Below, piece after piece: positions 35,955 to 60,326 of a stretch of DNA of 64,000 nt (position 1 is its first letter; every line of letters starts with the position of its first letter). Below the pieces are notes generated by a model. That model ran no database searches. It was not told the origin of the DNA and saw only the letters and a program-made list of their open reading frames with translations. The DNA lies in the NCBI RefSeq assembly GCF_004010195.1, contig NC_057711.1, positions 145,353,369 to 145,417,368 of the forward strand, given 5' to 3'. This stretch comes from Chiloscyllium plagiosum (lineage: Eukaryota). The position numbers and the translations under genes are program-made.

Positions 35955-36165
35955 AGTACAAAGTTTTAAAATCAAACACCAGGTTATCGTCCAACATGGT
36001 TATTTGGAAGCACTACCTTTCAGAATGCTACTCCATCAGGTGGTTATGGATATAAGATCCTGATGAAGTAGCAGCACCTCAAGAGTGCTTACAAATACCT
36101 GTTGGACGAACTGGTGTTGTGATTTTTAACTTTGTACTGATCCAGTCAAACACTGGCACCTCCCA
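35955..36165. mobile_element. Penelope-derived inverted-repeat element, family 2
   Basis: Arms gtacaaagtt...acaccag / ctggtgtt...aactttgtac; decayed CTGATG cores; homologous to 52512-52595. Confidence 0.7.
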
Positions 36166-37024
36166 ATTCTGGGGGTGAAAGTAAATACCGTGGAATTAGC
36201 TGCAGTTCACTTGATCTCCCCAAGGTGGTGCTCAAAGCCAATCAACAAATGCGTTTCATGGCTGAGGAAACTCAAACTTAAGACTCCATTCTAACATGTT
36301 TTAACACAGAATGGTGTCCAAACATCCACATTTTCCTTTTTTGCTGTCTTGTAACCTGCCTGCATGGTTCTTAGTTTTTGTAGGATGCAGGTAAATTGAG
36401 GTACTAGGTTAATGTAATGCTGCCCTTTTACTTAAGTAAAAGTTTAAGTCAACTAAGTTTCAGTGACCCTTTAACTGGACTGCATCTAGTTTGATCAATG
36501 CTGCTCCAAGACACTGCTTTTCCCTCTTAGTAAAAAAAATTAAGCAATGTTGACACTTAAAACTAGTCTAAACTTGATGTCACCATATAACTACCATAAA
36601 GTTACACAAGGTGTAATGTTAATAACCAATTGGAATAGTCTTTGAATTATTGGTTCAAAATTTCTTGCTTTAGTTGAGCAATATGCACCTTCAAATAAAG
36701 AATCAAATATTTACTTTCTGGATTTTTAATTTACAGAAATTTCTAGTTAACTTGTCCACGAGCTGTTTTGCCACTTGCCCCTTTACATTATCTATTATGT
36801 AGATAATGCCACTTAACTGCCTTTAATCCTTCTGCCTGTTTTAATGCATTTTGTTTGACTCTAATAGCATTTGTATGCAACTAATGACTGAATTCATCAA
36901 ACTCATTTGAATCACTTTTTCAACCTTCCCTAACTGCATCTAATAGTCATGCATACTATGAAAGCAGCTGGGAAACCATTGGTCACATTTTTGTTTTGCA
37001 GAATTTCTATTGCACCAAATTGTG

Positions 37025-37318
37025 CATGTGGCTTAGTGGTTAGCATTGTTGCCTCTCAGCACTAGGGAGCCAGGTTCAATTCCAGTCTCTGGTGACTGTG
37101 CAAACTCTAGACATATTCTGTGTTTGCATGGGTTTCCTCCCACAATCCCAAAATGGGCAGATTAGGTGGATTATCCCTACTAACTTGCCCATTGTGTTCA
37201 GATGTGTAGGTTGGGTAAATGGGGGGTGGGGGGAGAGGAGAAGAGAAAGAGGTGGGGTCTGGTGGGTTGGTGTGGACTTTGAGACAACAGGCCTGTTTCT
37301 ACATTACAGGGATTCTAA
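37025..37318 (+). mobile_element. HE1-type V-SINE, decayed
   Basis: gtggcttagtggttagc head, ggttcaattcc B-box. Confidence 0.7.
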
Positions 37319-38884
37319 TTCAAAGACACTCCTGCCCAATGCTAACTTTCTCTTGCTTATCTAATTTTGTACAGTTACAGGGTTCAAAGACCTCCGTCTA
37401 CCTGGTTCACATTGTAGGAGGTGGCCATTTGACTCTATTGCACCAACTCTTCAAATGCACAAAACTGTTATTCAACCTTCACCATACCCTTACTTTCTAT
37501 TTACCCTGCCTCCACCACACTTGCAGACAATGCATTCCAGACCTGAGGCAAACTTTTACTAATCTTGCAAATCACCAATATGTGCCTCCTTTTCCACATG
37601 TTAAAGCATCTTAAAATAAAATTTCTCCTGCCCTTCCATGATTTTGAAAACTTGCATCAAATTCTTTTAGCTGCCTTCAGCTTGTGCTACATGACCATTC
37701 AAGTATTATGTACAGCATCCAGTATTTAATATTCAGTTTTCAAACTGCTACCACAGTCTAAGGGCCTCCCAATAACACACCAGCAAAGTTTCCTGCTATG
37801 AATGCAGCTCCAGTTCTCTTTTAGATGCCACCTACTCTAGAACCATGTTCCAAGCCTGCACCATCTTTTCCAGCCATGCATTCTGAATCTTAACCACCTT
37901 CAGTAATCCATTACATATTGTACTGAGTAATTTCCAGCTGACCATGTTTTTAGGTTCTGATTATTTTTCTGCCTAAATTTTTGGCTGTGGGACCTGATTT
38001 AACTCATTGATCCTAACGTGCATTAGGAGGCTAGCTGGTCACCATTCCCCAGAAGAATGCCCTAAACTCCTGAACTTTTCTTTCCTGGTACTATTGTACC
38101 ATTTTGGAGTCATGGGCATTTGTAGCTATCTCCTCCATCCGTGTAAATACTCCTTTCTTTAGTTCTGTTCATGCTGCTCCAATTGTGGCTCTCTATTCCA
38201 TTATGGATTTCAGTACCACCTTCAGCTTCAAAAGTTGGAAATCTGTGAGCAGGACCCCATGGGATTCTCAACTTCCTGTTTGAATGTCACCTATTCCTTT
38301 TCTGCCTCAAGTCCCTTAAACTGCAGTATCGCCTCTTCCCTGAACAGGCTATTCACCACACTCTGGAGTCTGTTTTGCACCTACATCTAATCACTCTTGT
38401 CCTGAAACTTGAGCTTCAGTTCCTCTAACTGGCAGCACCTTCTGCATATATGGTAATTGAAAATCCATGGTCACTCGCCATACAACAGGTCACCCATTCC
38501 ATTTGACACTTTCAAGTAGATTCTTGGAACCAGAAAATGTCCCCAATTTTTGGGAATCTGGAGCCATTTGCAGTGGCCAATGGATGCTCTTATCTACAGT
38601 TTCTGTGGACTGTGGTGGGAGACCTGTGAGTGGTCTTCCAGTTGCACTGACACCAGTGGCCCAATAATGCTGCCTTAATGGTCCTATTTTATTGCCACTG
38701 GTAGGGGACTCTTGTGATGCAGTGGTAGCATCCCTACCTCTGAGTCCAAAGACCCAAGTTCAAGTTACACTTGCACCAGAGTGTCATAACATCCCTGAAT
38801 AGAAAATATTTACTGCCACTAATATTAACCCAGCAGGAGTCATGGCCCTCAATATGAGGTGCACAACAACCCTGACTTGTTTGT

Positions 38885-38970
38885 CAAAAGCTGGAAAAAC
38901 ACAGCAGCTCAGGCAGTATCAGAGGAACAGAAGAGTCAATGTTTCAGGCATAAGCCCTTCATCAGGAATG
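38885..38970 (-). mobile_element. Penelope-derived short element with CpG-decayed hammerhead
   Basis: Minus strand cattcCTGATGAagggcttatgcctGAAAcattgac. Confidence 0.75.
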
Positions 38971-39614
38971 TGACACATTCAAATGAGAGCAGAAAAAGAA
39001 CAGGGATTGGGTATGAGGAGATAATTTTGGGAATCAAAATACAGAAGCCAATTATAGGCACACATAATTAATAAACTGCTGGAGAAACTCCACAGATCTG
39101 GCAACCTCTTTGGAGAGAGAAACTGTTTACATTTAGGGTCTGATTAACTTTAAAAGTTCAGCTCTTTTGTCTGTTTGAATCAGGGCTGAGTGGCCTGGCA
39201 GAACCTAAACTTGGCATCAGTGAGCAAGTGCTGCTTGATAGCACTGTTGCTGATCAAGAGTTGATTGAAGTAATTGGCTGATTTGGATTTGTCCTCCATT
39301 TGTGTATAGGATAAACCCAGGCAATTTGCTCAGTAGATGCTAGCATTATAGCTATAAAAGAAGAACATGGCTAGGGGTGCCATACATTTTGGAGCATATG
39401 TCTTCAATACCATTACCAAAAGGTTGTCAAGGTCTGTGGCCTTTGCAGTATCTAATGCCTCCAGCCTTGTTGTGATATTGTGTGGAGTGAATCAAATTAG
39501 CTGATGTGATACTGGGACCTCTGGAGCAAAATATGTCACCTTTACTTTTCACTGAGTTAGCAGGTAATAAAATTGTCTTATTGTTTGCTCAAGAAAACTT
39601 TGTAATTAGTCTTG

Positions 39615-40150
39615 TTTAATTTATTGTCACGTACTGAGATGCAGTGAAAAGTGTTGCTTTGCATGCTATGCAGGCAGATTGCACCATATGTCAGGGTAGC
39701 AGGACAGTGAGGGATGGTGTTACCACAGAAGGGGCAGAGACAGATCAGACTTCACATTTGTGAAGTCCATTCAAAAGTCTGATAAAAGCAGGGAATAAGC
39801 TGTTCTGGAATCTGATCATGCATGTATTCAAATTCTTTGATCTTCTCAACAGAAAATAGTGAAAGAGACTTGAACCAAGGTGGGAGAGGTCTTTGATTAT
39901 GCTGGCTGCTTTCCCAAGGCAGCAGGAAGTATGCATGGGGTCAATGGATGGGAGGCTGATTTGGGAGATGGACTGGGCTGTGTTCACGACTCTGGTTGGC
40001 TGCGGCCTTGAGCAGTTGCCATACCAAGCTGTGATGCTCATAGAAGCTAGGATGCTTTCTATGGTGCATCTATGAAAATTGCTAAGAATCCTTTCTGAAC
40101 TTCCTTAGCTACCTGAGGAAGTTGAGACATTGAGTTTTCTTGCCCATTGC
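39615..40150 (-). mobile_element. Rex1/Babar LINE 3' fragment
   Basis: ITAWYGNCS...RFQNSLFPAFIRLLN typical of the Rex1 ORF end. Confidence 0.85.
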
Positions 40151-43100
40151 ATCCTCTGTTATTGTTCACGATGGAAACAGCTAACTACATTTCCAATGGA
40201 GGAAGTGTAGCCACTAAAAGTAAGTAGTGTTCAAAACTTAAACTTTTATGTTGTGATCCATTTGGGAGATTCAAAAGAGAGAGTGCTGAGTCACCCCTCC
40301 TCGCTCATTGTTAATGATTGCAATCAATCTCTGCCCCCAAAGAATGAGCCATTAAAAATTAAGACTCTCATTGTTTTAAGGAAATGCATTATTGGAAATT
40401 TCCACTACTACTCCTGGTTTTGATTTAAGGAGATCCAGTGTTAATTCCATTGTTCACTCTTCATCAAGCTGTTCTAATACTGCTACAGCTTGGCAGCTAC
40501 CTGGTAGTATGTCAATTTGCCCAAGTAAGTGCTGTCCTCAAAAAGCAAGATAAATCCAATCTGACCAGTTATCAATCGGCAACAAGTGATAGAAATGACC
40601 TCATTCCTCGACATGCAATGGCTTTACAGTCCGATTCCCACACACTCAACATGCTGGGAGTTTCCATTGCCCAGAAAACTGTCTATAACAGCCCGGTAAA
40701 TACGATGTTCCTCAGGCAGGTCAGAGGCTATGACAACAAAATTGTGTCTCACCCCTGAGTATACTAAACAGATTTTATTCCATCAACTTTTTTGTAGCGA
40801 ATAATAAATTAAAGTAGTTTGCCCTACTCTTCAATTCTCATTTGTCTACCACTGAAGGTCTGCATTAAACACTAAGCTTTATATCTTGCTTAACATCCTT
40901 TACTACTGCTTAGGTGCTGTCATTATTTTTGTCCCTGTCATTGGTAGGAATTGTATCTTTCCTATAATGTGCTTTGTCACTCTCAGAAGCTATTCTTGTG
41001 CTATTCAATTAACTATTTCCTCATTCCTTTAAAACTGGATCTTTTCTAAAATTAAACCACTTTCTTTTACTGTCCTTGGAGTCTATTTTCATCCACATTA
41101 TACTTTCAGAATAAATGTCAATGCAGGCATTTTCTTCCAGTCTTACTTCAGAGACATGACAACATTGATTGCAATAATTTGTATCTGTATCACATTCAAA
41201 ACGTAATGTCGGTAAAGGTGCCAAAATGCTTCAGAGGGATTGTGAACAAAAAATGATGGCATCTCATTGGGCAAATGACCGTAAGTTTGGTCTAAAAGGT
41301 ATGTTTTGGGCAGTGTCTTTAAAGGAGGGACGTGAGAGGTTTGGGGAGAGAATTCTATATTTTGGGGCCCAGGTAGTTGAAGCCACTGCTGGCAATGAAG
41401 TAGTTAAAATCTGAGTTACTTTAGATGGCAGGATTAGAGCAGAACTGATACATCAGAGGGTTGTAGGGCTGGAGGCAATTGTGGAAATAAGGAGAGGTTC
41501 CAAAAATCATAATTACAAGTGGAATGGAGATTTCAATCAGAATGGGTTTGAATTACATGTCAATATCTTTCAAATGGTAGCCTGTAGCTAATGCAACTTT
41601 TTTTACTGTTCTAAGAGCTGAATTTCTTCCAGCCTTAGACAGGGTGTTCAATTCAGTCTCATTCTTGCACTATACCTCCAAAGAGTATAAACCGAAGTGG
41701 GTCAGCGATTTCAAACAGTGAATCTGATTAATGGTGTTTGGTGAGGTGGGGACAAAGTGGTTTGTTTGCTTTATTTTCTTCATTGTCTGATACTCAACTT
41801 CTAATTTGATGCAGTGGAAGATGCTGTTGGTAGGAAGCTACTCCATTTTTAAAAAAATCATTGCTACAGTTAAAATATGACAGGGTGGTTTGGCCGAATG
41901 GAAAAGACAGCCAGTGGCATGTGGGAAATCATAGATACACCATGTGTCCCTGATTAACACATCCAAACAAAGTATCAGCATCTGAGCTCCAAGCTTCAGG
42001 ACTTGAGTAGTTGCGGGAGTTACAGTTGTGTATCTACATGGTAGAGGACGAAGTATATGGTGTATTTAGGAACTTGGTCACACAACAGCGTTAGGGATGT
42101 GAGGACCGATAAGGAATGGGGACCAACAGGCAATCCAAGAGACCTAGGCAGGTAATGCATGAGTCCCTCGACGATTTTAGTTGCATCTTGGTTTTCTGCT
42201 TTAGATGTTGATGAAGTAATGATTCCGCTGAGAAATGCAGTCAGAGGCAAGTTAGAGGTAGCATTACGTGTGGTTCAGCTTTAAAAAGGGGGTGGAAGGC
42301 AGTACCGGTACATCATTTATTTTAGCCAGGGGAACGGAGAGGCACATTAGCAGCCAGAAACGTGACTCCAGAGTGGCATGGTGCTAGAGTCAAAGATTTT
42401 ACAAAATAGATAGAGTATCATTCTGGGGGAGTGTAAAGAGCCAGATGTTTGGTACCAACATGGACCACGAGACTTTAGTAGGAAAGGGGACGAGGCTGTG
42501 AAAGCAGATTCCAGAGAACAAGGTATGAGTAGGAGTTTATATACTCTGACTATTTGTGGAACAGCAAGACATGATTGTCAGCACAATCTTCCCAGTTAAG
42601 TGTAAATACTACTGAACTAGATATCATTCTCTGAAGTTGAGGTCATGACTTCTGAATATTAAATTGCCTGCTTAGTGCCAGAGTAAAGGACATCTCCTTA
42701 CAGCAGGAATGGGAGAAGAGGATTCATCCATCTTGCATCTGATTTGGGAGTAGCACTGAGCCCCTCACACCTGCTTCACCATTTGATATCATGGCTATTT
42801 TGATTGTAATCTCATCTTTATCTACCCCGATAACTTTTCATCTCCTTGCTGTAGTGGTCCACAAAGGAGCCAATATGGCATAGACAAACCAAGATGAAAG
42901 CACAATACTGTGCATGTTGAAAAATCAGGAATAAAAACTGAACCTGCTGGAAATTAACAACAGGACAGGTGGATCTATGGAGAGAGAGAGAAGCAGTTAA
43001 CGTTTGGATTGAATGTTGTCTATGTCAATAAGCTCTGGATTAACTTCGATTTGGGCTGATGTAAGTGGCATTCACATTACACAAATGCCAACCATTAATC

Positions 43101-44359
43101 ATCTCCAACAGGACACTTTATCTCATGGTTGATTTGATGGTGGTGATTACTAGGTGAAAGTTGCCATAGGCGATTTGGTGGTGGGGAACACTGTTCACTT
43201 GTGTTCGATAGCATTTCCAACAATTTAAAAAGAAGACAATCTATTTCCTTTTGACTTGCTGAGTCCACCACTATCAACATCCTGGGAAATATCATCCTAA
43301 GGGAAAGAAACTTTTTATTTTTTGGTGCAATGTATCTTGGATTAAGGAAAACAAAAAATGCTGAAGATCACGGTGGGTCAGATAGCATCCATAGAGAGAC
43401 AGTAAGATAACATTGAGTCTAGAGGCTCTCCATCATTAAAGACTGACAACTTTGTGTTTAAAATGGTACCCTTCAGTGTTCTAATAGTTTAGAGATCTTT
43501 TGCTTGCTTTCAGAACTCTTTTCTTTAATGAAATGCACAGTCTAAAACATAAAACAGTTTTAGGCAGCTGGGCTGTATTTTCCAATAACCTCAGCACAAG
43601 AATATTTTTGTTATAGAGCTGATTTTAAGCGTGAGACAGCAAACTGGCAAGACCAATTTAAGACTTGTTTAATTCTAAAACTCTGCCTTGTGAAATAAAT
43701 GACTAACATTCAAACCAACATCTTGACTGACAAGGGAGTTGATAGTTATCTGAATGTGAATGTGAACTTAAGCCCATAATCAGATCAGCTATAATCTTAT
43801 TGAATGATGGAAAAGGCTAGAAAGACCAAACAACCCATTCTCTACTCTTCATATGCTTCTAAGTGTATTCACAAAAGTAGAAGGGTTGGGCCAATTAAAT
43901 TCAACCAAAGTAGGTGGATTATTATATTCCACGGATTTGCCAGATGTTAGGCTCCTCTTATTTGTTTTGCTTCAATCCTTGGTTTTCACAATGGGGTTGG
44001 CAGAGGGAATTAATTATATTGAGCCTCCTATTGTGCAAAGCTTCCTTTGGTCCTTAATGATATTGGGTATGTGATGTGTGTAAAGAAAACTGTCATATAC
44101 TTTACAGCTACTTACAGAGTTGCTTAACTCTCAGCAAAACACACCTGATTGACACTGTTGAGCTGGATCTGATTATGCATTGACCTTTGCAAGTGATTAC
44201 AGATTTTTAAAAAATCAAAGGAAATCGATCTTTTCCAAATAAGACTCCGTTACACTATTTTGAGTTCATATTTCTGACCTCATCCATATTATCATTTTTA
44301 TAAATGCAACACCAGTGTTTCTTACCTTTTGACACTATTCTTGCTTTTCTATGAACAAG

Positions 44360-46695
44360 GATAAGTCAGGACCTTGCAGGAAGAGCAAATTACATCAGAA
44401 TTAGGCAGGAGTTAGGAAGTGTTAATTGGGAGAAGCTGTTATTAGGCATGTTCACATTTAACATGTGGGAAATGCTTAAAGATCTGCTGAGGAGAGTTTA
44501 GATTAGATTCCCCACAATGTGAAAACAGGCCCTTCGACTCAACAACTCCACACCGACCCTCTGAAGAGTAACCCACCCAGATCCATTTTCCTCTGACTAG
44601 TGCACCTAACACTATGGGCAATTAAACATGGCCAATTCACTTGACCTACACATCTTTGGACTGTGGGACAAAACCCACACAGACATGGGAAGAACATGAA
44701 AACTCCACACAGACAGTCACCTGAGGCCGGAATCGAACCTGGGACCCTGGTGCTGTGAGGCAGCAGTGCTAACCACTGAGCCACCGTGCCACCCTTAAAT
44801 CAATGACCTCCTTGTTCAAGTAATGAGGAAGGAAAAGGCTGGCAAGGTAAGGGACCATTGGATAATGATGGAGGTTGTGAATTCAGTCAAAAGGGAAAAA
44901 GCCTATGTAAGGTTTAGGAAGTTAAAATCTGACAGGGCCCATGAGGAATATAAGGAAAGTACTAAAAGCAGGGAAGTAAGAGAGCAAGAAGGGGCCATGA
45001 AATGACTTTGGCAAGTCGGGTTAAAGAGAATCCCAAGGCATTCTAAGGGATGCATTAAAAACAAAAGGATAATTAGGGTGAAGGCAGGACCACTCAAGGT
45101 TAAAGGGGAGAAATTGTTCTTGGAGTCAGGGGATGTGGATGAGATCTTAAATGAGAACTTTGCATCAGTATTTACCCAGGAGAAGGATATGGAAGATAGT
45201 GAGATTTGTGTGGAGAATGCTAACTTTGAGATTGAGAAAGAAGTGGTCTTGGATCACTTGAAGAGCATTAAGGTAGATAAGTGCCCAATGGCAGCTACCC
45301 TGGGTTACTGAGAGAAGCAAGTGGAGTTTGCTGGGGCCTTGACCAAGTTCTTTGAATCCTCGCCAGTCACTGGAGAGTTCCCAGAGGACTGGCCAGTATC
45401 TAATGTTGTTCCTCTGTTCAAGAAGGGAAATAGGGATAATCCAGGAAACTATAGACTGGTGAGTCTCACATTGATGGTTGGGAAGCTATTGGAGAAGATG
45501 AGAGCAGTGAATGTTGTTTACATGGTTTTTAGTAAGGCTTGCAACAAGGTCTCTCACGGTAAGCTCATCCAGAAGACTAAGTTGCATGGGATCCACTGTG
45601 ACTTGGCCAAATAGATTCAGAATTGGCTTGGCCATAGAAGGCTGAGGGTAGAGGTGGAAAAGTGTTTTTCAGGGTGGAGGTCTGTGACTAGTGGTGTTCC
45701 ACATGGTTCGATACTGGGACCTCTGCTGTTTGTGATGTCTGTAAATGACTTGGATGAAAATGTGGATAGGTAGCTTAATAAGTTTGCAGATGATACAAAG
45801 ATCAGTGAAGTTGTGGATAGCATAGAAGGTTGTCAAAGGATACAGCAGGATACAGATCAGTTGCAGATATAGGCAGAGAAATGGCAAGTGCTGTTTAATC
45901 TGGTTAAACATGAGGTGCTGCACTTTGGGAGATCAGATGTTAAGGAAATGTAAACAGTTAATGGCAGGGCTGCGAACAGCATTGATGTACAGAAAGATCT
46001 TGGGGTTTAAGTCCATAGCTCCCTGAAAGTAGCCATGCAAATAGATAAGGTGGTAAAGAAGGCCTATGATATGCTTGCCTTTATTGGTCAGGAAACTGAG
46101 TACAAGAGTCAGGATGTCATGTTGCAGCTGTATAAGATTTTTGTTAGGCCACACTTAGAATATTGTGTTCAGTTCTGGTTTGCCACATTACAGGAAGGAT
46201 GTGAAGGCTTCAGACTGGGTGCAGAAGAGGTTTACCAGGATGCTACCTAGATTAGAGGGCTTGGGTTATAAGGAGAGGCTAGAAAATCTCAGGTTGTTTT
46301 TTCTTGAGTGATGGAGGCAGAGGGGAGACTTGATACAAGTTATAAAATTATGAGATGCATAGATACGATTGACAGTCATAATCTTTTTTCCCAGAGTTGA
46401 AATATCTAATACCAGGCGGCACACACTTAAGTTGAGAGGAGGAAATTCAAAGGAAACATGAGGGACAAGTTTAGTGGTAGCAATCTGGTAGCAGTCTGGA
46501 ATGCACTGCCAGGGGTGGTGGTGGAGGAGGTATGATAGGGACAATAAAGGGACTTTTAAATAAGCTCATGATTATGCAAGAAATGAAAGGATATGGACCA
46601 AGGGCAGAAAGAATGGATGAGTTTAACTTGGGTCATGTTTGGCACAACATTGTGGGCTGATTGATCCACTCCTGTGCTGTATTGTTCTATGTTCG
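44360..46695 (+). mobile_element. CR1 LINE ORF2 fragment, interrupted by a SINE
   Basis: PEDW..NVVPLFKKG..NYR.VSL, GVP.GS.LGPLLF, KFADDTK and RPHLEYCVQFW motifs with stops and frameshifts. Confidence 0.92.
44498..44794 (-). mobile_element. HE1-type V-SINE nested in CR1
   Basis: Minus strand ggcacggtggctcagtggttagc head, V-domain, tctaatcta tail. Confidence 0.88.
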
Positions 46696-49269: not shown

Positions 49270-49510
49270 AGGAGAAAGTGAGGACTGCAGATGCTGGAGA
49301 TCAGAGCTTAAAAATGTGTTGCTGGAAAAGTACAGCAAGTCAGGCAGCATCCGAGAAGCAGGAAAATCAACGTTTCAGGCAAAAGCCCTTTATCAGGAAG
49401 CCCGAAACATCGATCTTCCTGCTCCTCAGATGCTGCCTGACCTGCTGTGCTTTTCCAGCACCACTCTAATCTTGATTCTAATCTCCAACATCTGCAGTAC
49501 CCACTTGTGC
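49270..49510. mobile_element. Penelope-derived inverted-repeat element, family 1
   Basis: About 110-bp inverted arms ctgcagatgctggagat... / ...atctccaacatctgcag. Confidence 0.8.
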
Positions 49511-49549
49511 CTATATATGTTAATGATGTGGACTCAGAAATCAGAAGGA

Positions 49550-49740
49550 CAGATCTCCTACCGTATCCGCGGGTGCTATGTTCCAAGACCTATTACGGAC
49601 ACCCGAAACTGCAGATAGTAGTGAACCCTATCATTCCAGGAATTATTTCTGGAATGTTCCATATAATATTTTCAGGCTGCGCTAAGCCACAGATAACTGA
49701 AACCGTGGAAACTGAATCCGTGGATACAGGGGTTCTCCTG
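49550..49740. mobile_element. Tigger/pogo-type (MER2-like) MITE
   Basis: Imperfect TIRs cag...gtatccgcgg / ccgtggatac...ctg followed by TA. Confidence 0.65.
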
Positions 49741-50359
49741 TACAATTTTAAAATGTTCTAATAATTATCAGGGATATAGTCAATAATGAGGAGGATTGTA
49801 TCAAATTATGATAAGACATTGTTTGACTCGGAGATTCGGTGTGTAATTGGCAATTTGTTTTCAAAACAGAATACTGTACACTTTGTTCTGGTTGCAAATT
49901 ATATAAAGAATATAGAGGCTCTTGAGAGATCACAGAAATGATAAGGAGGTTCAGCAAAGACTGAACAGGCCAGTTCACATTTCTGCAGAAAAGACTGAGA
50001 GATGATCTTACAAAAAGTCCTTAAGATTATGACAGTTAAAGATGGATGTAGGAAAACTGATTTGCACTTATGAATGAATTGAAATCTAGGGGCAACAGCT
50101 GCTCACTAACACTACAAATCCAATAATGGGTTCAAGAGGAACATTTCTCTATTTCTTATTTTAAAAAATGGCTAGAATGTGAAGGTTCTTCCACATGGGA
50201 ATCAATATTTCTTTTTAATGGAAAGCTAGACAAATAATAATTAGAAAGGAATAGTATTCTGACAGAGATAGAGCAACTTCTGTATCTGAAAGATGGAACA
50301 ATTGGTCTAAAGGATCTGTTTAGTAGCTGACTGTAATTCCTAGTTTAATTCTCTCCTAC

Positions 50360-51200
50360 AGGAAGCATGTTGTGAAACTTGAAAGGGTTCAAAAAAGGAT
50401 GCTACCAGGGTTGGAGAGTTTGAGCTATAGGGAGAAGCTGAATAGGCTGGGGCTATTTTCCCTTATGCTTCCTTGGTTGATGGGTGACCTTATAGAAGTT
50501 TATAAAATCATAAGCGTCACGGTTAAGGTAAATAGACTAGGTCTTCTCTCTGGTGTGTGTGTGTGGTGGGGTGGGGGGGAGGGGTGACATCCAAAACTAG
50601 AGGGCAAAGGTTTAAGGTGAGAGGCAAATGATTTAAAAGGGACCTAAGGAGCATGAGAGAGTGGTGCATTCATGGCATGAGCTGCCAGAGGAAATGATGG
50701 ATGCTGGTACAATTACAAGATTTAAAAGGCATCTGGATGGGTACATGAATAGGAAGGGTTTAGAAGGATGTGGACCAAATGCTGGCAAATGTGACTAGAT
50801 TTAATTTAGGATATCTGGTCGGCATGGATCAGTTGGACCGCAGGGTCTATTTCCTCGCTGTACATCTTTATGACTCTACAACTCTTAAGTTGTTCCCTGG
50901 GAAGAGGAGTCCAGAACTAGAGGGCATAGGTTTAGGGTGAGAGGGGAAATATATAAAAGAGACCTGAGGGGCAACTTTTTCACGCAGAGGGTGGTACAGG
51001 TATGGAATGAGCTGCCAGAGGAAGTGGTGGAGGCTGGTATGATTGCAACATTTAGAAGGCACTTGGATGGGTATATGAATAGGAAGGGTTTGGGCCGGGT
51101 GCTGGCAGGTGGGACTAGATTGGGTTGGGATATCTGGTCGGCATGGACGGGTTGGACCGAAGGGTCTGTTTCCATGCTGTACATCTCTATGACTCTATGT
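50360..51200 (+). mobile_element. two head-to-tail CR1 3' ends (about 50360-50880 and 50890-51200)
   Basis: Each ends in tgtacatc..tatgactcta. Confidence 0.85.
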
Positions 51201-51208
51201 TAAACCAT

Positions 51209-51339
51209 CGGCAAAAATGAGGACTGCAGATGCTGGAAACCAGAGTTTAGATCAGAGTGATGCTGGAAAAGCACAGCAGGTCAGGTAGCATCCGAGGAGC
51301 AGGAAAATCGACGTTTCGGGCAAAAGCCCTTGGTCAGGT
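51209..51339 (-). mobile_element. Penelope-derived short element, family 1, 16-bp TSD
   Basis: ctctatgttaaaccat at 51193-51208 and 51340-51355. Confidence 0.85.
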
Positions 51340-51376
51340 CTCTATGTTAAACCATACCTGATTGAACCTGGTCCAT

Positions 51377-52075
51377 CTACAAGTCAGCGTCCCAGGGAGT
51401 TGACGTGGATCGGCTGGACACTGGTAAATCTATCACTGTGACTGGGTTGGTAATGCCAGTGGGATATCTGCTGGCGGGATAGGCTGGGGCCGTCGGGTAA
51501 TAAGTTTTGTTCGCCGGGCTGTGTCTTTCCAACAGCTTGCCGAAGCTAAACATCAAGTGGATGCCGGCGATGGTGATCAGGCTACCGCCGACGAAGCCGA
51601 GCACCACCGCGTAGCCAACATTGAGGTCGGTGCCCCCCACGGTGTTGGGGATCTGCCGAAGGAGGTGGGTGTACCAGGAGACAGGAATCAGGGTCAGGAT
51701 CCCTCCGAGCACCAGGATGATGCCCCCGACCCCTGCCACCCTGTAGTGGGGGATGTCAGTCCAGCAGCGCACCCCGAAGGTAGTGACCAGGATCCCGGCC
51801 GCAGACACCACCAAGGAGGCGATCATGAGACCTCGGGCGATGGCCAGCACTGGGTCGTTGAAGTAGGAATCGTCGGCGAGTCCGCAGGTCAGCTCCCGCA
51901 CCGACTGCTCGTCCTTGCAGATCTCCCAGAGCCCCTGGTGGTGCACCTCATCCAGAGCCCCGTTGGGAATCCCCGACACGTCCCTCCAGGCTGGAGCGGC
52001 CAGGCAGGTTATGACCAGCACGTAGCCGGCCGGTGAAAGCACCAGCCCCAGGATCATCACCGCCGGGGTCCGCAT
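51377..52075 (-). CDS. cldn23: claudin-23-like, single coding exon, 232 aa
   Basis: Four TM helices, ECL1 W...GLW..C...C claudin signature; N-terminus MRTPAVMILGLVL and C-terminus WDADL resemble CLDN23 (MRTPVVM.../...DSDL). Confidence 0.88.
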   Translation of the reverse strand: MRTPAVMILGLVLSPAGYVLVITCLAAPAWRDVSGIPNGALDEVHHQGLWEICKDEQSVRELTCGLADDSYFNDPVLAIARGLMIASLVVSAAGILVTTFGVRCWTDIPHYRVAGVGGIILVLGGILTLIPVSWYTHLLRQIPNTVGGTDLNVGYAVVLGFVGGSLITIAGIHLMFSFGKLLERHSPANKTYYPTAPAYPASRYPTGITNPVTVIDLPVSSRSTSTPWDADL

Positions 52076-52170
52076 CCTGACACAGCCGCTGCTGCTGAAC
52101 TGACCACAGCAGCCGCTCGCTCATCGCTCCACCGAGGCGCAGGGCGAGGCTGTCCTCTCACGTTACACCG

Positions 52171-52251
52171 AAACCAGAAAGACTGGTTTTCTCTATATAT
52201 ATAAAAAAACCACTCAGTGACCTCATTTCCAACCCTTCTGCACCCGCCCCC
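52171..52251 (-). promoter_or_regulatory. claudin core promoter (TATA-like box, GC box, GRHL-like site)
   Basis: TATATATATAG at about 52193-52203, roughly 120 nt upstream of the ATG; GGGGCGGG at about 52243-52250; AAACCAGTC at 52181-52189. Confidence 0.55.
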
Positions 52252-52334
52252 GGAGCTCCAGGAGATTGCAATCACAACACGCCGATGAGAGCCACACAAC
52301 GTGTTTAAATATTTACAAACAAAAAAAAACCCAA

Positions 52335-52490
52335 ACATTGCTGGAAAAGCCCAGCGGGGTCTGGCAGCGTCTGTGGAGAGAAATCAGAGCTAACGTTTCG
52401 GCTCAAGTGACCCCCCTTCCCTCACAACTTTTTCCATCATTTTCTGTTTTTGTTTCTGACTTAAAGCATCCGCGGTTCTTACAAAATGTT
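52335..52490 (-). mobile_element. Penelope-derived short element, family 3
   Basis: Minus strand ...gaaggggggtcacttgagccGAAACGTTagc; related decayed copies near 39075, 42945, 43360, 53300 and 55245. Confidence 0.6.
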
Positions 52491-52562
52491 TGAAGAACAG
52501 TTCTGAGGAAATTAAAAGTCACACAACACCAGGTTATATAGTCCAACAGGTTTAATCGGAAG

Positions 52563-52595
52563 CACTAGCTTTCGGAGCGCCGCTCCTTCATCAGG
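52563..52595 (-). ncRNA. minimal hammerhead ribozyme motif in a family-2 element (52512-52595)
   Basis: CUGAUGA-A-GGAGC-GGC-GCUCC-GAAA-GC-UA-GUG. Confidence 0.7.
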
Positions 52596-53382
52596 ACAAC
52601 AACCTGCTGTTCTTTGTTTTATTTTAATGTTTAAAAACGTGCGAGTAATTGGCGGGGGGGGGGGGGCAACCTGTTTGTTTTTCTTTTGGGAGGTCGGAGG
52701 GCAGATCGAAACCAAATTGTGTTGCAAAGAAAAACCGGAATGCAATGCAAGGGTCCCTGTCAAACAGGTTCCTGCCCGAGTTTCGACCAACTCCGGCTCC
52801 CAGATGTCATCAACCGCATTCCTACATTGTTGGTATGTGCAGAGGAATGAGAAATACTGCACCGAGCGGTTCGGTTAAGACGTTTTTATTCAGCTGAGAA
52901 GATTTCAGAACGCAGAATCTAAGGAGCTTGTGTGGTTTTAAACAGTTAAGTGGGGGGGGGGGGGAAGCTACCCGGTCTCATCAGAGACAGAAAGAGCATT
53001 AACTTTTCTGGTGAATACAAGCCGTTCAGTATTTAAATCGATGGGAAAATATTGAGAGATCGGCCCTGGGGCAGAAGCAAATTGTTCAGTTATTAAGTTA
53101 TTCTTTAACTACTTCCAGCGCTGACAAAAAGTCACTTGTCTGACTTTTTAACTTCCTGAAAGTGTTGCGTATTTCCAGCGTTTTGGAAGTAATTTTTAAT
53201 TTTATTCCCGCTTTTCTGCACTAAGGCTTCCCCCTGTGTTCTGAATCTTGGGCTAAATGGTAAAAGGGACGATAGCCCAAATAAGAGAATAGGGAACAAA
53301 AACAGAAATTGCTGGAGGAAGTCAGCAGGTCTGGCAGCGTCTGTGGAGAGAAGCCAGTTAGTTTACTGTCTACTGTTCTCCA

Positions 53383-53727
53383 GTTTCCTCATTCCCCCAC
53401 CTTGTCTCAGTCCTAACTCTCGAACTCAGCACCACCTTCCTAACCTGCAATCTTCTTCCTGACCTCTCCGCCCCCACCCCCACTCCCGCCTATCACCCTC
53501 ACCTTAACCTCCTTCCACCTGTCGCATTTCCAACGCCCCTCCCCCAAGTCCCTCCTCCCTACCTTTTATCTTAGACCGCTTGGCGCACTCTCCTCATTCC
53601 TGAAGAAGGGCTCATGCCTGAAATGTCGATTCTCCTGCGCCTTGGATGCTGCCTGACCTGCTGCACTTTTCCAGCAACACATTTTCAGCTCTGATCTCCA
53701 GCATCTGCAGTCCTCACTTTCTCCTAG
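53383..53727 (+). mobile_element. Penelope-like element 3' UTR / pseudo-LTR
   Basis: C-rich UTR, then attcCTGAAGAagggctcatgcctGAAAtgtcgatt and the family-1 tail. Confidence 0.75.
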
Positions 53728-53744
53728 AAATTAGTATAGCCAAT

Positions 53745-55160
53745 TGCAAATTAAGCAACACTATTGCCTATCATGGCTACTACCAACAAGCTCTGACATA
53801 ACCATGGAGTACTTTGAAAGGTTGGACATGGTCCATGTCAACCCTAGCCTCCCAGCCTGACTTGATCCCCTGCAATTTGACCTACACTCATCACTGGAAC
53901 ATCTGGATGACAAGGACAACTATGTCAGGCTCCTACTTATCGACTTCAGCTCTGCCTTCAAAACCATAATACCCACCAGACTAATCTCAAAACTCTGAGA
54001 CCTAGGTCTTGGTTCTGCCCTCTGCAACTGGGCCCTCGCTTCCTGACTCATTCACTGTAATCAGTGAAGATAAACAACAGCAAATCCTCCATGATAATCC
54101 TCAGCATTAGCGCCCTGTAAGGGTGCGTACTCAGCCCTGTATTGTATTCGATGTATGCCCACGACTGCATAGCCAAATTCCATATGAATGCCATCTCCAA
54201 GCCAAATTCTGTACGAACGCCATCTCCAAGTTTGCTGACGACACCACCATTGTAGACCGATATCAAACAATCCTGATGAAGGGCTTTTGCCCGAAACGTC
54301 GATTTTGCCTGTCCTCGGATGCTGCCTGAATTGCTGTGCTCTTCCAGCACCACTGATCCGATATCAAACAATGATGAGCCAGAATGCAGGAAGGAGATAG
54401 AGTGCTTGGTGTCATGGTGCAATAATAACAATATTGGCAAAACAAAAGAACAGATTGTTGACTTCCGGAAGAAAGGAGAGGGACACACCCCAATTTACAT
54501 CAATGGAGCTGAGGTTGAGAGTGTCAAGTTCCTAGGATTGACGATAAACAACAATCTGTCCTGGATCTCCCACGTGGTTGCAATGGTCAAGATGGCACAA
54601 TAACATCTCTTCTTTCTCAGGCAGCTTGGGAAATTCAGCATGTTCACAGGGACTCTCACCAACTTCTACAAATGCATCATAGAAAACAATCTATCTGCGT
54701 ACATCATGGTTTGGTACGGCAAGTGCTGTGCTCAGGACCAAAACTACAGAAGGTTGTGTACACAGTCCAGACCACCCATCTATGGACTCCATTTACACTT
54801 CATGTTGCAGTGGAAAGGCTGCCAACATCATCAAAGACCCCACTCATCCCACTAATACTCTCTTCCAACCTCTTCCATTTGGGGAAAAGATACAGAAGCT
54901 TGAACACGTGCCCCAACAGATTCAAAAACAGTTTCTTCCCTGCTGTTATTAGACTGCTGAAAGGGACCTCAATAGTTTCAAATTTAACGTTGATCTTGCT
55001 TTGTGCACCTCTTGTACTGCTTGTAACCTTGTATACCTCACTCAATCTAAACACCCTATGATCTGTATGTCCTTGTTTGCTATGATCTGCTTCTACTGCT
55101 CACAAAACAAAAAAAATTCACTATACTTAGGTACATTTCTTAACAATAAATCAAATCAAA
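53745..55160 (+). mobile_element. Rex1/Babar LINE ORF and 3' fragment
   Basis: LDPLQF.Y, DFSSAF.TI, KFADDTTI and RFKNSFFPAVIRLL motifs; caaat tail. Confidence 0.9.
54269..54304 (+). ncRNA. minimal hammerhead ribozyme motif at the start of an 86-bp insert (54272-54357, 15-bp TSD)
   Basis: AAUC-CUGAUGA-A-GGGC-UUUU-GCCC-GAAA-CG-UC-GAUU; TSD ccgatatcaaacaat at 54257-54271 and 54358-54372. Confidence 0.75.
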
Positions 55161-56614
55161 TATTACTGCATTGTTAGTATTACTAGTACTGGATCAAACA
55201 GAAATGGGTGAACAACTGGTAGCTGAGTAAAGTGAAATAATGCAGATGTTGGAAATCTAAAATGGAAATAAAGAATGCTGAAAGCATTCAAGAGGGCCCA
55301 GAAGCATTCGTGGAGAGAGAAATAGAGTTATCAAACTGAAATTTTAATTCTTGCCGAACTTCAGAATCTCCTTCCTCATCGGGCCTAACCTTAAGACAAA
55401 TATTTTCTGACACTTGGATTATACATTGTATTTTCCCTAACTAACCATTATTGGCAAAATCAGGCTACAAGTGCAGTGAGACCCATCTCAATGTCTGGAA
55501 CAACTTTGCCATCCCTTACACTTTTCACAAGTGTCTTTCTCCACCCAAGCCTCCAAAATTTACTTTGCAAATGGCAGGATGTTGTTCTGCTCCTTATGAG
55601 ACAAATCAAAATTCCATATTAACATTATGTAATTAGCATATCCTCCTTACATTATTGATTATGTAATTATCAGCTTTTCCCTCATTGATTGTATCATTTG
55701 TTATCTCACTAACAGGAAATTTAATCTGTGAAGCAGGGTTTCTGCAATATATTGGATTCACTAAATAATTAGGATATATGGCACAGAAATATGCAATTCG
55801 GCCCAAACAGTTTATGGAAAGTCCTCATGCTGCACAGGCACCACATAGCATCACAAACAACCAAAGGATTTTGGAGGAATTCCTGATTTTGCATCTCTAA
55901 AAGTTAAAGTAGTCTAAATATTATGGCATCAGATGATGTGATCTAAAGAGTTTTAGATGGTATACTTTGGAGGTAATGTTTGAACTCTTTGATGTTGCTA
56001 AAGCTACTGCTCCCACTCTAGTTCTACTCCTTGTAGCATCTATTATTTCCAGTTTTAATACTAGAAGTAACAAATTAAACAGCAAGGTAGAATCTTCCCA
56101 GCCTGTGAATGAGTGGAGCATGATGAGAGAATTGAGAAAATCAGGGAGCACGTTCAGGAAGGACCTTCTTGACATCAAGAGCAAAAAGTCCCATTTTCCA
56201 ACCAAATGTTGAACAGTGAAAGGGGATTCTTGCGAGTGAGTAGCATGGATTATCACTCACCAACAGCCTCATTATTATTTGATTTCACTTCATTAATGTG
56301 TAGCCTCCCATCCTACCATCCACTATAGGAAAACTAGATCGTGAGAATACCAGGTGGATACCATTCACTGCTTGCTCCTCTCGAGTTCTATCATGGATAT
56401 CCAGCATTAATGTCCCAGGGCATGCTCCCAAGCAGCAGAAATATGCACCCCACTTTCATGGACACTGGTATCTAACAAGTGTCAGCCTTCATGGCACATC
56501 TCCAATTCACTGCACAACACTGCTGCATTTCAGTGTTACACTTTGGAATGCGCCAGCAGCTTTCATTAAGATGCTGTTGCATGGACAGATTTTGTGCAGG
56601 GACAGGCAGCCAGC

Positions 56615-56900
56615 TAATGGATTGGCTGGGTCTGGGTGGGTTGCTCTTCGGAGGGTCGGTGTGGATTTGTTGGGCCGAAGGGCCTGTTTCCACACTGTAA
56701 GTAATCTAATCTAGTCAGCCTCTCCCCATAGTTCAACCCCAGCAACATCCATGTAAATCTTTTCTGAACCTTTCAAGTTTCACATTCTTTTCTAAACCCT
56801 TTCAATTGGAGGGAGACCAGAATTGCACACAACATTCCAAAAGTCGCCTAACCAATGTCCTGTACAGCCGCAACATGACCTCCCAACTCCTATACTCATT
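56615..56900. mobile_element. HE1 SINE 3' half (+) abutting a CR1 fragment (-)
   Basis: gggtgggttgctcttcggagggtcgg...taatcta, then reverse-strand CR1 motifs. Confidence 0.7.
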
Positions 56901-57310
56901 ACTGTCGACAGTACTACAGATATGGTCTCTCGATAGCAGAACCTCCCTACCATTCAATTCTCCTCACTAAAAATAATGACATTCTAAATCATTTTTCTAA
57001 TTACTCACTGTACCCGCATACTAACCTTCTGTATTTCAGAGCTCTGCAATCTCTCAACATTTAGATAATATGCTTCTTTTTCACTCTTCCTCCAAAAAGG
57101 ACAATTTCACATTTTCCTACATTGTGCTCATTTTTCCATGTCTTTCTACACTCATTTAACCTATCTATATCATCTTTTGGTAGCTTCCTTAAATCCTTTT
57201 CAAAACTTACTTTCCTATCTATCGTCAGCAAATTTGCAAATCCTTGTGTCCCTTCATAAATAGTATTTTTCCTAGTACAAATTTCTGCAGCAGACCACTC
57301 ATTACATCTT

Positions 57311-57488
57311 CGGAGAAAACAGAGTCAAAAATGTAACGCTGGAAAAGCACAGCAGGTCAGGCAGCATCGAAGGAGCAGGACAGTCAACGTTTTGGGCACA
57401 TTCATTAAAGGTTTATGCCCAAAACATTGACTCTCCTGTTCCTCAGATGCGACCTGACCTGCTATGTTTTTCCGGCACCACACTTTGT
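57311..57488. mobile_element. Penelope-derived inverted-repeat element, 13-bp TSD
   Basis: ctcattacatctt at 57298-57310 and 57489-57501; a further half copy at about 57514-57603. Confidence 0.8.
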
Positions 57489-59575
57489 CTCATTACATCT
57501 TGCCAACCTGAAAAACAGAGTCAATAATGTGTGGCACTGGAAAACAGACAGAAGGTCAAACAGCATCTGAGGAACAAGAGAGCCAATGTTTTGGGCATAA
57601 TCCACCTGAAATACAACCATTTGTACCTACGCTCTGCTTCCCGTTAGCCAGCTATGGCAGTGTGCTAACCCTGACACCCTGAGCATTAACTTTCCACAAT
57701 AACCTTTGATGTGGCACCTTGTCAAATAACATGGAAATCTAAGCAAAGTATATCCACCATTTTCATTTATCAATTTTCCTGCTATCAATATTCCCACATA
57801 ATTGTGAGCTGAAGTGAACCTATCTAAAGGATTTAGCCTATATTTTAGGTTGGTCAGATAATTATTTCTGCAGGATAGATGGGAGTTGTGAATTGGGACC
57901 CTGTGCAAGCCTAAACATAGCAGACATCAAAAGAATTCCCTGGGAAATTGAAGATTCCCATGGGCAATTCTCTAACCCCACAACTCCCTGAAAGTATCAA
58001 TTTAAGTCAGAGAATTTGAGGGGTTACACTGCAGTTAAGTAAATGTGCAGGAAAAGTCAGGCTATTCAAATTTTTTTTTAACTTCTGAGGAACAATTCAA
58101 TTTACTCCCCAACTTACATCACACACCTCCAATTACTCTTCTTGCTGATTACTGACATTCCCAGATCCTGACCCAACCTTGGATACAACACACACTGCCA
58201 CCAAACTGAACACCCGTTACATACCTCCCTCTTTTCACCCAGTGACCCTTTCTTAATACCAGATACAAAATCGTCTCTCTTCCCTTGGACTTGAAACCCC
58301 TTCATCACCAGAACAGGCATGCTAAACACTCATTACTTAACCTTTCCCACCTTGTGCCCTGGCGGCCTACCCTCTATCATATTGCACCTGCTTATCTGGC
58401 ACCCTTCTCTCTACCCATTTGGCATCCTATCCATCTGACATTGGCACCATACCCTTACAACTTTATCTTGCATACCTATCCTTTCACAAGAGCTATCAAT
58501 GTGGTTATTTCTGATGCTGGATGTTGAAATCACAAAATATGACAACTCGTGCTGCGAAAAACAGGGTGTGATTTGATTTCCCCCAATTATTGTGCCATAC
58601 AAGAAATCTGTCAGATTTAAAGTGTAGCTCTGCATTTCTGAAGGAGCCCTGGTTGGAATGTCGTGTGGGAATTGCAGCACTATTTCTTAATATTAAAACT
58701 AGGAACAAAATGGCAACCTGAGTGTGATTTCCACTCTTCAGAAAGGACATCCAGAATATTCATTCAGGGTTGGAAAGGGTTCCAACATGAAAATTGCATA
58801 CATACAATTATGAGTGGGAACAGGATAAAATCAATGGCAAGGGTTTGCTGCAGGAGCAGAAAACCAATAGCTTTGGACTGCCCAATGTTAAGGGAGATAA
58901 TGCTCATCCAGGAAGATGCACATGTGGAAAATCAGTTTGAGAGACTTGGTAGAAGAACATCTCTTTAGAGTACGTGTGACCCCTGACGTTCACGAGATGT
59001 TGCAGATGATAACATGTAGGTGAACAAGTTGCAGGGGGTTGAGGATCACCAGGATAGATCCTCGAGGAAGTCCAGAAATAAGGTACAGCATGGACAGAAG
59101 CCATTACAACAGAATCTCTGGCTAAATCTGAATAGAAACTAAATGAGGGACAATGCTACCAATTCATATCTTGTGAGAAAAGAGACAACAATTTTGGAAG
59201 CAACAGCATCTTTAAGAAATTTGGAAAGGAAAGCAACCTCTTTGTTACCTGTAAAGTTACTTATTCCAAAGTTGCTGGCCAATCTCATATTCTGTACCCA
59301 CCATAAACTTTAGCTCTTCAAAAAACTCTTCTACTTCTCTGGAATGAGATATGAAATTTCATCTTTCTGATTCAGAAGTGAGAGGTCTGACACTTCAGAC
59401 AACAATACCTATTAAATGTTTTATCTGGCACATACAAACTACTCTCTGTGTAAAAAACGTTGTTTCTTATGTCCATTTTAAAAGTTCCTCCTCTTACCTT
59501 AAAAGTATACCCGCTAGTTTTGAACACCCCCACCACAGTGAAAAGACCCTTACTACTCGTCTTATCTATGCCCCT

Positions 59576-59810
59576 GTTTAAAACAGAGTGGTGCTGGAAA
59601 AGCACAGTAGATCAGGCAGCATCCGAGGAGCAGGAAAATCGACATTTCTGGCAAAAGCCCTTCATCAGGAATAGGCTATATTCCTGATGAAGGGCTTTTG
59701 TCCGAAACGTCGATTTTCCTGCTCCTCGGATTCTGCCTGATCTGCTGTGCTTTTCCAGCACCACTCTGATCTAAACTCTGGTTTCCAGCATCTGCAACCT
59801 TCACTTTTGC
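59576..59810. mobile_element. Penelope-derived palindromic element with a hammerhead on each strand, 15-bp TSD, inside a reverse-strand CR1
   Basis: cttatctatgcccct at 59561-59575 and 59811-59825; about 90-bp inverted arms. Confidence 0.88.
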
Positions 59811-60326
59811 CTTATCTATGCCCCTCGTGACTTTATAAATTTCCATAAGGTCACCCCTCAACTTCCTATGCTCCAGTTAAAAAAGGCCCAGCCTATTTTT
59901 ATAACTCAGACCTTCCATTCCATCCAATCTTTTCTGAATCGTCTCCAATTTAATAATATCCTTCCTATAGCAAAGTGAATATTTGATGATGTGACAAAAG
60001 TTTTGTTCCGAGCCAAGGAGTTTAAGGAGGTAACTCCTGAGCCAAGGGCTTATACAACAGCTGTCCACCTTGGAGCAAAGGCAGAGCAATACTAACCTAT
60101 CCTCTAGATTATGCATTTCATCTTTCACTGCAAGGTCACTATTTACCACAGCATGCAAAGTGTTTGAAATCCTTTTATTTAGAGCATTGTGAAAGAATAA
60201 TTTTTAAAATCAATATGCAGTAAAATTTTTAATGATTAGAATAAAGTTTACATAAACACACAGCTAACAAAAATCCATAGTTTTAATATTCCTTCCCTGA
60301 ACTCATAAAAAGGGATAAGTATAACA

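What the first reader, a model, noticed from the sequence alone, without database searches (positions are those of the whole stretch)
35955..59810. Three families of short mobile inserts carrying covarying minimal hammerhead ribozyme cores
Seen: family 1 reads CUGAUGA-A-GGGC-UUUU-GCCC-GAAA-CG-UC (54273-54300 +, 59684-59711 +; decayed at 38935-38970 -, about 53600 +, about 49380 -). Family 2 reads CUGAUGA-A-GGAGC-GGC-GCUCC-GAAA-GC-UA (52594-52566 -). Family 3 reads ...GAAA-CG-UU (about 52390-52430 -, core decayed). Catalytic nucleotides are shared while stem II and the stem-III palindrome (ACGU vs AGCU) covary. Established: Penelope-like elements carry minimal type I hammerheads with palindromic stem III proposed to act as dimers, and an extra A after A9 is tolerated in natural hammerheads. 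Inference: these are non-autonomous Penelope-derived or retrozyme-like ribozyme elements at high density (more than 10 copies in 64 kb). I cannot tell whether these particular shark families are already catalogued.
Basis: partly seen in the sequence, partly recalled or inferred. Interest (0 to 1): 0.8.

Follow-up and report, generated by a model that had tools for sequence, protein, structure and literature searches.

The report
Penelope retrotransposon ends carrying hammerhead ribozymes
The short ribozyme-bearing inserts are the 5' leaders of three Penelope-like jumping genes, a known home of such minimal hammerheads; their ends line up so sharply that they probably record where the element's RNA starts and show that the ribozyme was uncut in the RNAs that were copied.

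Summary
In detail: 19 arms (about 14 insertions) of three hammerhead-bearing repeat families lie in 35,955-59,811; only 54273 and 59684 keep a full core with a palindromic stem III. They are not retrozymes. Families 1 and 2 continue upstream into reverse transcriptase plus GIY-YIG frames of Penelope-like elements (Neptune/Nematis-type linker); family 3 into a similar endonuclease end. In families 1b and 2 the ribozyme-plus-tail segment is also the 5' leader before the start codon. Minimal hammerheads in such elements were described in 2014, and this scan met the same thing in another shark genome. Window density (299 arms/Mb) is ordinary for this genome (254/Mb, roughly 0.9 million arms). Best reading: run-off cDNAs from internal priming on uncleaved 5' leaders, often primed on both target strands. 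The start site is inferred; RNA reads were inconclusive. New member of a known kind.

The parts
54271..54354 (+). Family 1a solo insert: intact minimal hammerhead (C3 at 54273, predicted cut after 54300) plus short tail; interrupts a LINE reverse-transcriptase fragment
   Evidence: 15-nt target-site duplication at 54257-54271 and 54358-54372
59576..59811 (.). Family 1a head-to-head palindrome: minus arm 59674-59576 (short tail, damaged stem II/III), plus arm 59676-59811 (long tail; hammerhead 59684-59711)
   Evidence: 14-nt duplication at 59562-59575 and 59812-59825; folds as one hairpin, z -24.4
53376..53724 (+). Family 1b 5'-truncated Penelope end: last codons of the endonuclease frame, C-rich pseudo-LTR, TATA-like and initiator-like sites, hammerhead 53600-53627 (palindrome mutated), long tail
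52509..52595 (-). Family 2 insert: hammerhead 52594-52566 (stem I 5' strand replaced by a remnant of an inverted arm) plus short tail
52321..52480 (.). Family 3 inverted pair: minus arm 52429-52321 with decayed core, plus-strand tail fragment 52430-52480
51210..51338 (-).
   Evidence: about 16-nt target-site duplication
49271..49511 (.). Family 1 head-to-head palindrome; minus arm core has G8 changed to A, plus arm starts in stem II
38890..38969 (-). Family 1a solo insert starting at the initiator-like A; hammerhead 38965-38938 with broken palindrome
35956..36167 (.). Old family 2 head-to-head palindrome, both cores decayed
57320..57598 (.). Old family 1 palindrome (57320-57484) and a further decayed minus arm (57508-57598)
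53292..53352 (-). Family 3 tail fragment without ribozyme
39073..39118 (-). Family 3 tail fragment, weak match
   Evidence: 43.7 bits
42909..42985 (-). Family 3 tail fragment, weak match
   Evidence: 39.2 bits
16462..16555 (-).

Best explanation
The inserts are dead fragments of three endonuclease-positive Penelope-like retrotransposons (PLEs). Shown: each element ends in pseudo-LTR, minimal hammerhead and a ~125-nt stem-loop tail; in families 1b and 2 the same hammerhead-plus-tail stretch also precedes the start codon, so it is the 5' leader. Shown: short copies end 3' at two places (about +85-95 and +120-130 from core base C3) and 5' at an A three (families 1, 3) or seven (family 2) bases before the core. 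Inferred: Pol II starts at that A from a TATA/initiator promoter in the upstream pseudo-LTR. The element's protein nicks target DNA and starts reverse transcription internally at one of the two tail sites, as shown in vitro for the anole element. On the 3' copy of the tail this yields long 5'-truncated insertions; on the 5' leader (of full mRNA or of a solo pseudo-LTR transcript) it runs off the RNA end after 90-130 nt and yields these short inserts. Priming from both target strands gives head-to-head palindromes with the tail on one arm. The RNAs that were copied were not cut by their hammerhead. The short copies lack the TATA-like box and are decaying passengers.
For: A natural 749-aa open frame with RVT_1 (E 1.2e-8), CX4CX2C linker and GIY-YIG (E 2.9e-4, just under Pfam's cut-off) ends in the family-1 hammerhead; family 2 likewise has RVT_1 and the linker. 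20 of 20 family-2 and 12 of 20 family-1b copies picked by their ORF start have the tail running into the ORF; the other 8 are truncated inside the ORF. Random sample: 43 of the 61 arms that reach +3 stop within -10..+3, against 2 of 18 in the next 14 nt; solos alone 16 of 32 against 2 of 16. Match to native upstream sequence drops above the A: 73% to 31% (1a), 59% to 44% (1b), 57% to 40% (3), 49% to 39% to 30% (2). TATAAA lies 30-32 nt before that A in 18 of 20 long family-2 copies. Only 5 of 242 arms start at +29..+33, against 103 at -10..+3. Duplications of 9 nt or more flank 59 of 97 pairs and 16 of 63 solos (controls 0.2% and 1.9%). 86 of 99 pairs are long/short, and either arm can reach the start (33 both, 11 long only, 22 short only, 20 neither). 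Internal initiation at two sites, cutting of both strands and use of uncleaved RNA are reported for anole Poseidon (PMC11167929).
Against: No RNA evidence for the start site: 2,055 reads from one single-cell run lie on both strands with no start or end pile-up; the second run laid none. Family 1 has only a non-canonical T-rich box (0 strict TATAWA in 77 long copies), family 3 a strict one at -29 in 3 of 12; copies of one family are one observation. In families 1 and 3 the A is also the first base of stem I, so a fold-driven stop is separated from a start site only by family 2. Of 18 ORF-bearing family-2 copies with readable ends, 7 stop at +56..+68 (unexplained) and only 3 at -6..+3. The cap-derived G signal is weak (13 G against 7 A, some explained by the partner arm). 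Pair and duplication counts include loci chosen by my queries. The mechanism is carried over from a Poseidon element to Neptune-type ones. No family-3 copy with an RT core was retrieved.
Confidence: 0.68

Rival explanations
1. Self-propagating non-autonomous elements (SINE-, MITE- or retrozyme-like): short or palindromic masters are transcribed, processed by their hammerheads and re-inserted as units.
For: Most arms are short with fixed ends; a -7/0 junction recurs in several family-2 palindromes (these loci were selected by a query bearing part of that junction). Retrozymes are argued to derive from pseudo-LTRs (bioRxiv 10.64898/2026.07.22.740005).
Against: No tandem hammerhead arrays in the window; palindrome junctions differ from copy to copy; short copies share subfamily variants with ORF-linked copies; their ends are not at the cleavage site; they lack the TATA-like box.
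Confidence: 0.1
2. Same Penelope origin, but the 5' pile-up is a stop or template switch of the reverse transcriptase at the 5' edge of the hammerhead fold, not the RNA's end.
For: In families 1 and 3 the boundary A is the first base of stem I; many arms stop inside stem II (+4..+17: 15 of 76).
Against: In family 2 the well-paired stem I starts at -2 but copies extend to -7, 30-32 nt from TATAAA; a structural stall would be expected on the 3' side of the fold (inference).
Confidence: 0.15
3. Palindromes arise by self-priming on an antisense transcript from a bidirectional pseudo-LTR promoter, as proposed for rotifer Penelope (PMC3846280), or by snap-back of one cDNA.
For: 48 of 99 pair junctions have zero gap or overlap, as fold-back priming would leave; RNA reads cover both strands.
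Against: Both arms reach the predicted sense start in 33 of 86 pairs, and either arm can be the one that does; solos show the same boundary.
Confidence: 0.05
4. Ordinary random 5' truncation, with the pile-up an artefact of aligning to references that miss other upstream subfamilies.
For: Subfamilies 1a, 1b and 1c share the tail but differ upstream, so the artefact is possible in principle.
Against: Upstream flanks of 65 solos match one another in only 2 cases, one local duplication; target-site duplications sit at the boundary; in pairs the flank is the partner arm.
Confidence: 0.02

Closest known systems
Minimal hammerheads of metazoan Penelope-like elements (Cervera and De la Pena 2014, PMC4209133)
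   Same: Type I minimal core, extra base between positions 9 and 10.1, G-C first pair of stem II in families 1-3, palindromic stem III, mostly single or opposite-strand copies from truncated elements.
   Different: Stem II is 4-5 bp rather than 7-8 bp as in Schistosoma. Extrapolated load is about 2 x 10^5 descriptor-passing motifs (24 per 382 kb) against about 4,000 and 9,000 reported for coelacanth and Xenopus; descriptors differ. No shark appears in the parts of that paper that I read.
Poseidon of Anolis carolinensis (PAc; Frangieh et al. 2024, PMC11167929)
   Same: Hammerhead followed about 85-125 nt later by two 3' end sites (the 'tail'); uncleaved RNA as template; both strands cut and extended.
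   Different: In PAc the ORF starts inside the hammerhead; here the ATG lies at about +120 (family 2) or +165 (family 1b), so the segment is untranslated. These elements carry the CX2-5CxxC linker that Poseidon lacks.
Neptune/Nematis clades of endonuclease-positive PLEs (Craig et al. 2021, PMC8557442)
   Same: DKG motif, C-terminal GIY-YIG with two inner cysteines, CX2-5CxxC linker, partial tandems, inverted 5' copy, tail at one end.
   Different: No tree with named references was possible, so Neptune and Nematis are not separated; no targeting to (TA)n repeats was evident in the flanks printed.
Non-LTR retrozymes (PMC7229834; bioRxiv 10.64898/2026.07.22.740005)
   Same: Short, non-coding, type I hammerhead, related to pseudo-LTRs.
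   Different: Retrozymes are head-to-tail tandem units of 150-450 bp cut into monomers and circles; these are 85-130-nt solos or head-to-head pairs whose ends do not lie at the cleavage site.

Membership tests
EN+ Penelope-like element | Reverse transcriptase and C-terminal GIY-YIG endonuclease in one frame, contiguous with the repeat | tested here: met
   Family 1: L185, 749 aa. Family 2: L189 has RVT_1 and a GIY-YIG-like end aligned to family 1 at 32%; Pfam did not call its GIY-YIG.
EN+ Penelope-like element | Same for family 3 | tested here: inconclusive
   Thumb, linker and endonuclease-like end align to family 1 at 36-51%; no RT core retrieved and no Pfam hit.
EN+ Penelope-like element | Partial tandems (pseudo-LTRs), inverted 5' copies, 30-40-bp tail at one end | tested here: met
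   Tandem junctions in 5 of 20 family-2 and 2 of 20 family-1b ORF-start loci; 86 of 99 pairs long/short.
Neptune/Nematis type | CX2-5CxxC linker between RT and endonuclease | tested here: met
   Present in families 1, 2 and 3; definition from PMC8557442.
Neptune (as against Nematis) | RT phylogeny with named reference elements | not testable with these tools
   No Repbase or Dfam sequences are held.
Minimal type I hammerhead of PLEs | Conserved core, extra base after A9, stem II, palindromic stem III, short stem I | tested here: met
   complete in 2 window copies and in 15 of 24 descriptor hits of the random sample.
Minimal type I hammerhead of PLEs | Self-cleavage as dimer or with protein help | not testable with these tools
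   Needs in vitro assay; reported activity of such motifs is low or protein-assisted (PMC4209133, PMC11167929).
Non-LTR retrozyme | Head-to-tail tandem units, each with a hammerhead | tested here: not met
   None of 5 tandem repeats in the window holds one; not tested genome-wide.
Non-LTR retrozyme | Unit ends at the cleavage site; circular RNA | tested here: not met
   5 of 242 arms start at +29..+33; circular RNA itself not tested.
Rfam hammerhead families | Covariance-model match | tested here: not met
   No hammerhead among 5 matches at E up to 10.

The most novel reading that the evidence does not exclude
This genome holds close to a million fossil products of one step of Penelope retrotransposition. 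Their 5' ends map the transcription start (first base of the hammerhead region), their 3' ends the two internal priming sites, and their head-to-head pairs record priming of both target strands on sense RNA. That would be in vivo evidence that the hammerhead is uncut in productive templates and that the promoter lies upstream of the RNA start, which explains why these elements need a partial tandem to stay active. My literature searches did not find this pile-up described; a putative TATA and initiator in a pseudo-LTR is in print (PMC3846280).
Probability: 0.55. Interest if true: 0.6.

Novelty: new member of a known kind. Interest (0 to 1): 0.42.

Why it matters
The ribozyme class is known. 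The value lies in the insertion anatomy. What the hammerhead does in Penelope-like elements and how their inverted ends form are open questions (PMC8557442, PMC3846280, PMC11167929). These copies give exact, testable coordinates for the RNA start and the two priming sites in Neptune-type families, and argue that cleavage is not part of the productive path. Practically, about 250 arms per Mb, half in long hairpins, can be mistaken for miRNA precursors or miniature inverted-repeat elements.

Tried and rejected
Rfam: no hammerhead model matched; the miRNA hit is the palindrome. Retrozyme arrays: none in the window. Cleavage-site-defined ends: no peak. Hidden upstream subfamilies or a spliced first exon as cause of the 5' boundary: solos share no upstream sequence. 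Cap-derived G: weak only. Public runs: no RNA holder listed; of two raw single-cell runs one gave reads on both strands without start or end peaks and one gave none, so neither start site nor cleavage could be judged. Structural covariation counts: the MAFFT alignment was out of register, so not run. Solved structures: 0 matches for the ORF. No PLE coding sequence is detectable by tblastn in the window. Monomer folds of three window copies are no more stable than shuffles (z -1.0 to +0.7). Supplementary figure S2 of PMC11167929, which shows insertion ends of the anole element, gave only panel labels and could already show a 5' pile-up; supplements of the 2026 preprint, which includes one cartilaginous fish, were not seen. 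The random sample stayed at 40 stretches. Repbase and Dfam could not be searched, so whether these families are catalogued is open.
Full report
Observation. A minimal type I descriptor finds 4 motifs in the window against 0.01 on average in 100 shuffles; two (54273, 59684) keep the palindromic stem III. The family-2 copy at 52594 keeps its core but has lost its stem-I partner strand; the family-3 copy and several family-1 copies have core mutations. Family references find 21 arms in the window, 19 in the finding's range, grouped into 5 head-to-head pairs and 9 solos. Rfam has no hammerhead match. Positions below count from core base C3 = +1; predicted cuts follow +28, +29 and +30 in families 1, 2 and 3.

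What the families are. The window lies in a 3.56-Gb genome. Searches with each family returned dispersed copies. Walking upstream from family 1 led through a GIY-YIG end into a reverse transcriptase. One natural copy, L185, holds a 749-aa open frame with DKG motif, RVT_1, a CX4CX2C linker and GIY-YIG, followed by pseudo-LTR, hammerhead and tail. Family 2 has its own element, about 30% identical to family 1 at protein level, nearly complete in L189. Family 3 reaches thumb, linker and endonuclease end, but I did not retrieve its RT core. The linker places all three with Neptune/Nematis rather than Poseidon by the definition in PMC8557442 (passages).

The short insert is the 5' leader. Copies picked only by their ORF start show the tail running into the coding frame: 20 of 20 for family 2 (ATG at about +120; one copy visible for only about 20 nt because of a gap) and 12 of 20 for family 1b (ATG at about +165; the other 8 are truncated within the ORF). 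Five and two of them continue further upstream as partial tandems. The tails fold into a long irregular stem-loop in all families.

Ends. In 40 random 10-kb stretches (381,785 called bases) there are 97 arms, 254 per Mb (bootstrap 197-315), or 0.7-1.1 million genome-wide by extrapolation; the window's 299 per Mb is ordinary. 3' ends are bimodal. Of 95 arms away from stretch edges, 43 start at -10..+3; of the 61 that reach +3, 43 stop there, against 2 of 18 in the next 14 nt; solos alone give 16 of 32 against 2 of 16. Over random, window and flank sets, 103 of 242 arms start at -10..+3 and 5 at +29..+33. The boundaries are real: duplications of 9-20 nt flank 59 of 97 pairs and 16 of 63 such solos (random and window only: 9 of 25 and 5 of 17; controls under 2%), and solos share no upstream sequence. 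Native match falls off above an A at -3 (families 1, 3) or -7 (family 2). That A fits initiator consensus sequences (YYANWYY, BBCABW; recalled, from no call). TATAAA starts 30-32 nt upstream in 18 of 20 long family-2 copies; family 3 has a strict box at -29 in 3 of 12 old copies; family 1 has only a T-rich non-canonical box. A putative TATA and initiator in a Penelope pseudo-LTR were noted in PMC3846280 (passages).

Pairs. 86 of 99 head-to-head pairs have one long and one short tail; both arms reach the start in 33, the long only in 11, the short only in 22, neither in 20 (includes query-selected loci). The 59.6-kb pair folds into one hairpin that buries its ribozyme.

Mechanism. For anole Poseidon, reverse transcription starts internally at two sites downstream of the hammerhead, both target strands are extended, and uncleaved RNA is the main template (PMC11167929, parts 1-2 of 4 read). 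Applied here, initiation on the 5' leader gives a 90-130-nt run-off product that begins at the transcription start, and priming of both strands gives the palindromes. Shown: identity, leader position, end distributions, duplications. Inferred: start site, run-off, twin priming. The lack of cleavage-site ends shows only that inserted templates were uncut; cut RNA may simply be lost. RNA reads did not decide the start. Unexplained: 7 of 18 ORF-bearing family-2 copies stop at +56..+68.

Comparison. Minimal hammerheads with an extra base and palindromic stem III, mostly in truncated and sometimes opposite-strand Penelope copies, are described in PMC4209133 (parts 1-2 of 4 read). Retrozymes are tandem units (PMC7229834, passages; bioRxiv 10.64898/2026.07.22.740005, parts 1-3 of 5); the window has none. 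PMC6155905 (passages) names no shark element. Seven searches showed no paper on shark hammerheads of this kind or on a 5' pile-up at the start site; the library lacks most subscription papers, Repbase and Dfam, and the relevant supplementary figure could not be read.

Verdict. The ribozymes are ordinary Penelope passengers, mostly decayed. The sharp, promoter-aligned 5' ends and asymmetric palindromes add a testable view of how these elements copy themselves. Interest 0.42.

Noticed in passing
L143:522, L161:9762(-), L166:4926: A fourth hammerhead family (5-bp stem II with 8-nt loop, extra U after A9, 3-bp stem I) at the end of what reads like a Poseidon-type endonuclease frame (motif likeness recalled), with a TATA box about 50 nt upstream of the core; not found in the window.
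   Followed up: partly
window 51380-52120 (-): Single open frame of the claudin family (PF00822, E 8.8e-17) in GC-rich sequence; the family-2 and family-3 inserts lie 200-500 bp upstream of it.
   Followed up: partly
window 26222-33727 (+): Exons of an LDL-receptor-related gene (EGF, LDL-receptor class B repeats, transmembrane segment).
   Followed up: no
L201-L213: Seven of 18 ORF-bearing family-2 copies begin at +56..+68, inside the tail stem-loop; unexplained second boundary.
   Followed up: no
window 53600(+) and 54273(+): Two family-1 ribozymes 673 bp apart on one strand; their stem-III halves could pair with one G-U wobble, the only plausible cis dimer in the window (inference).
   Followed up: no
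L014, L117: Copies in which coding sequence is joined directly to the ribozyme start, skipping the pseudo-LTR; possible template switches to the RNA 5' end.
   Followed up: no
window 59623-59729: The palindrome scores 49.8 bits against a plant miRNA model (gathering 72); such inserts may pose as miRNA hairpins.
   Followed up: yes
window 63287-63786: Assembly gap of 500 N.
   Followed up: no
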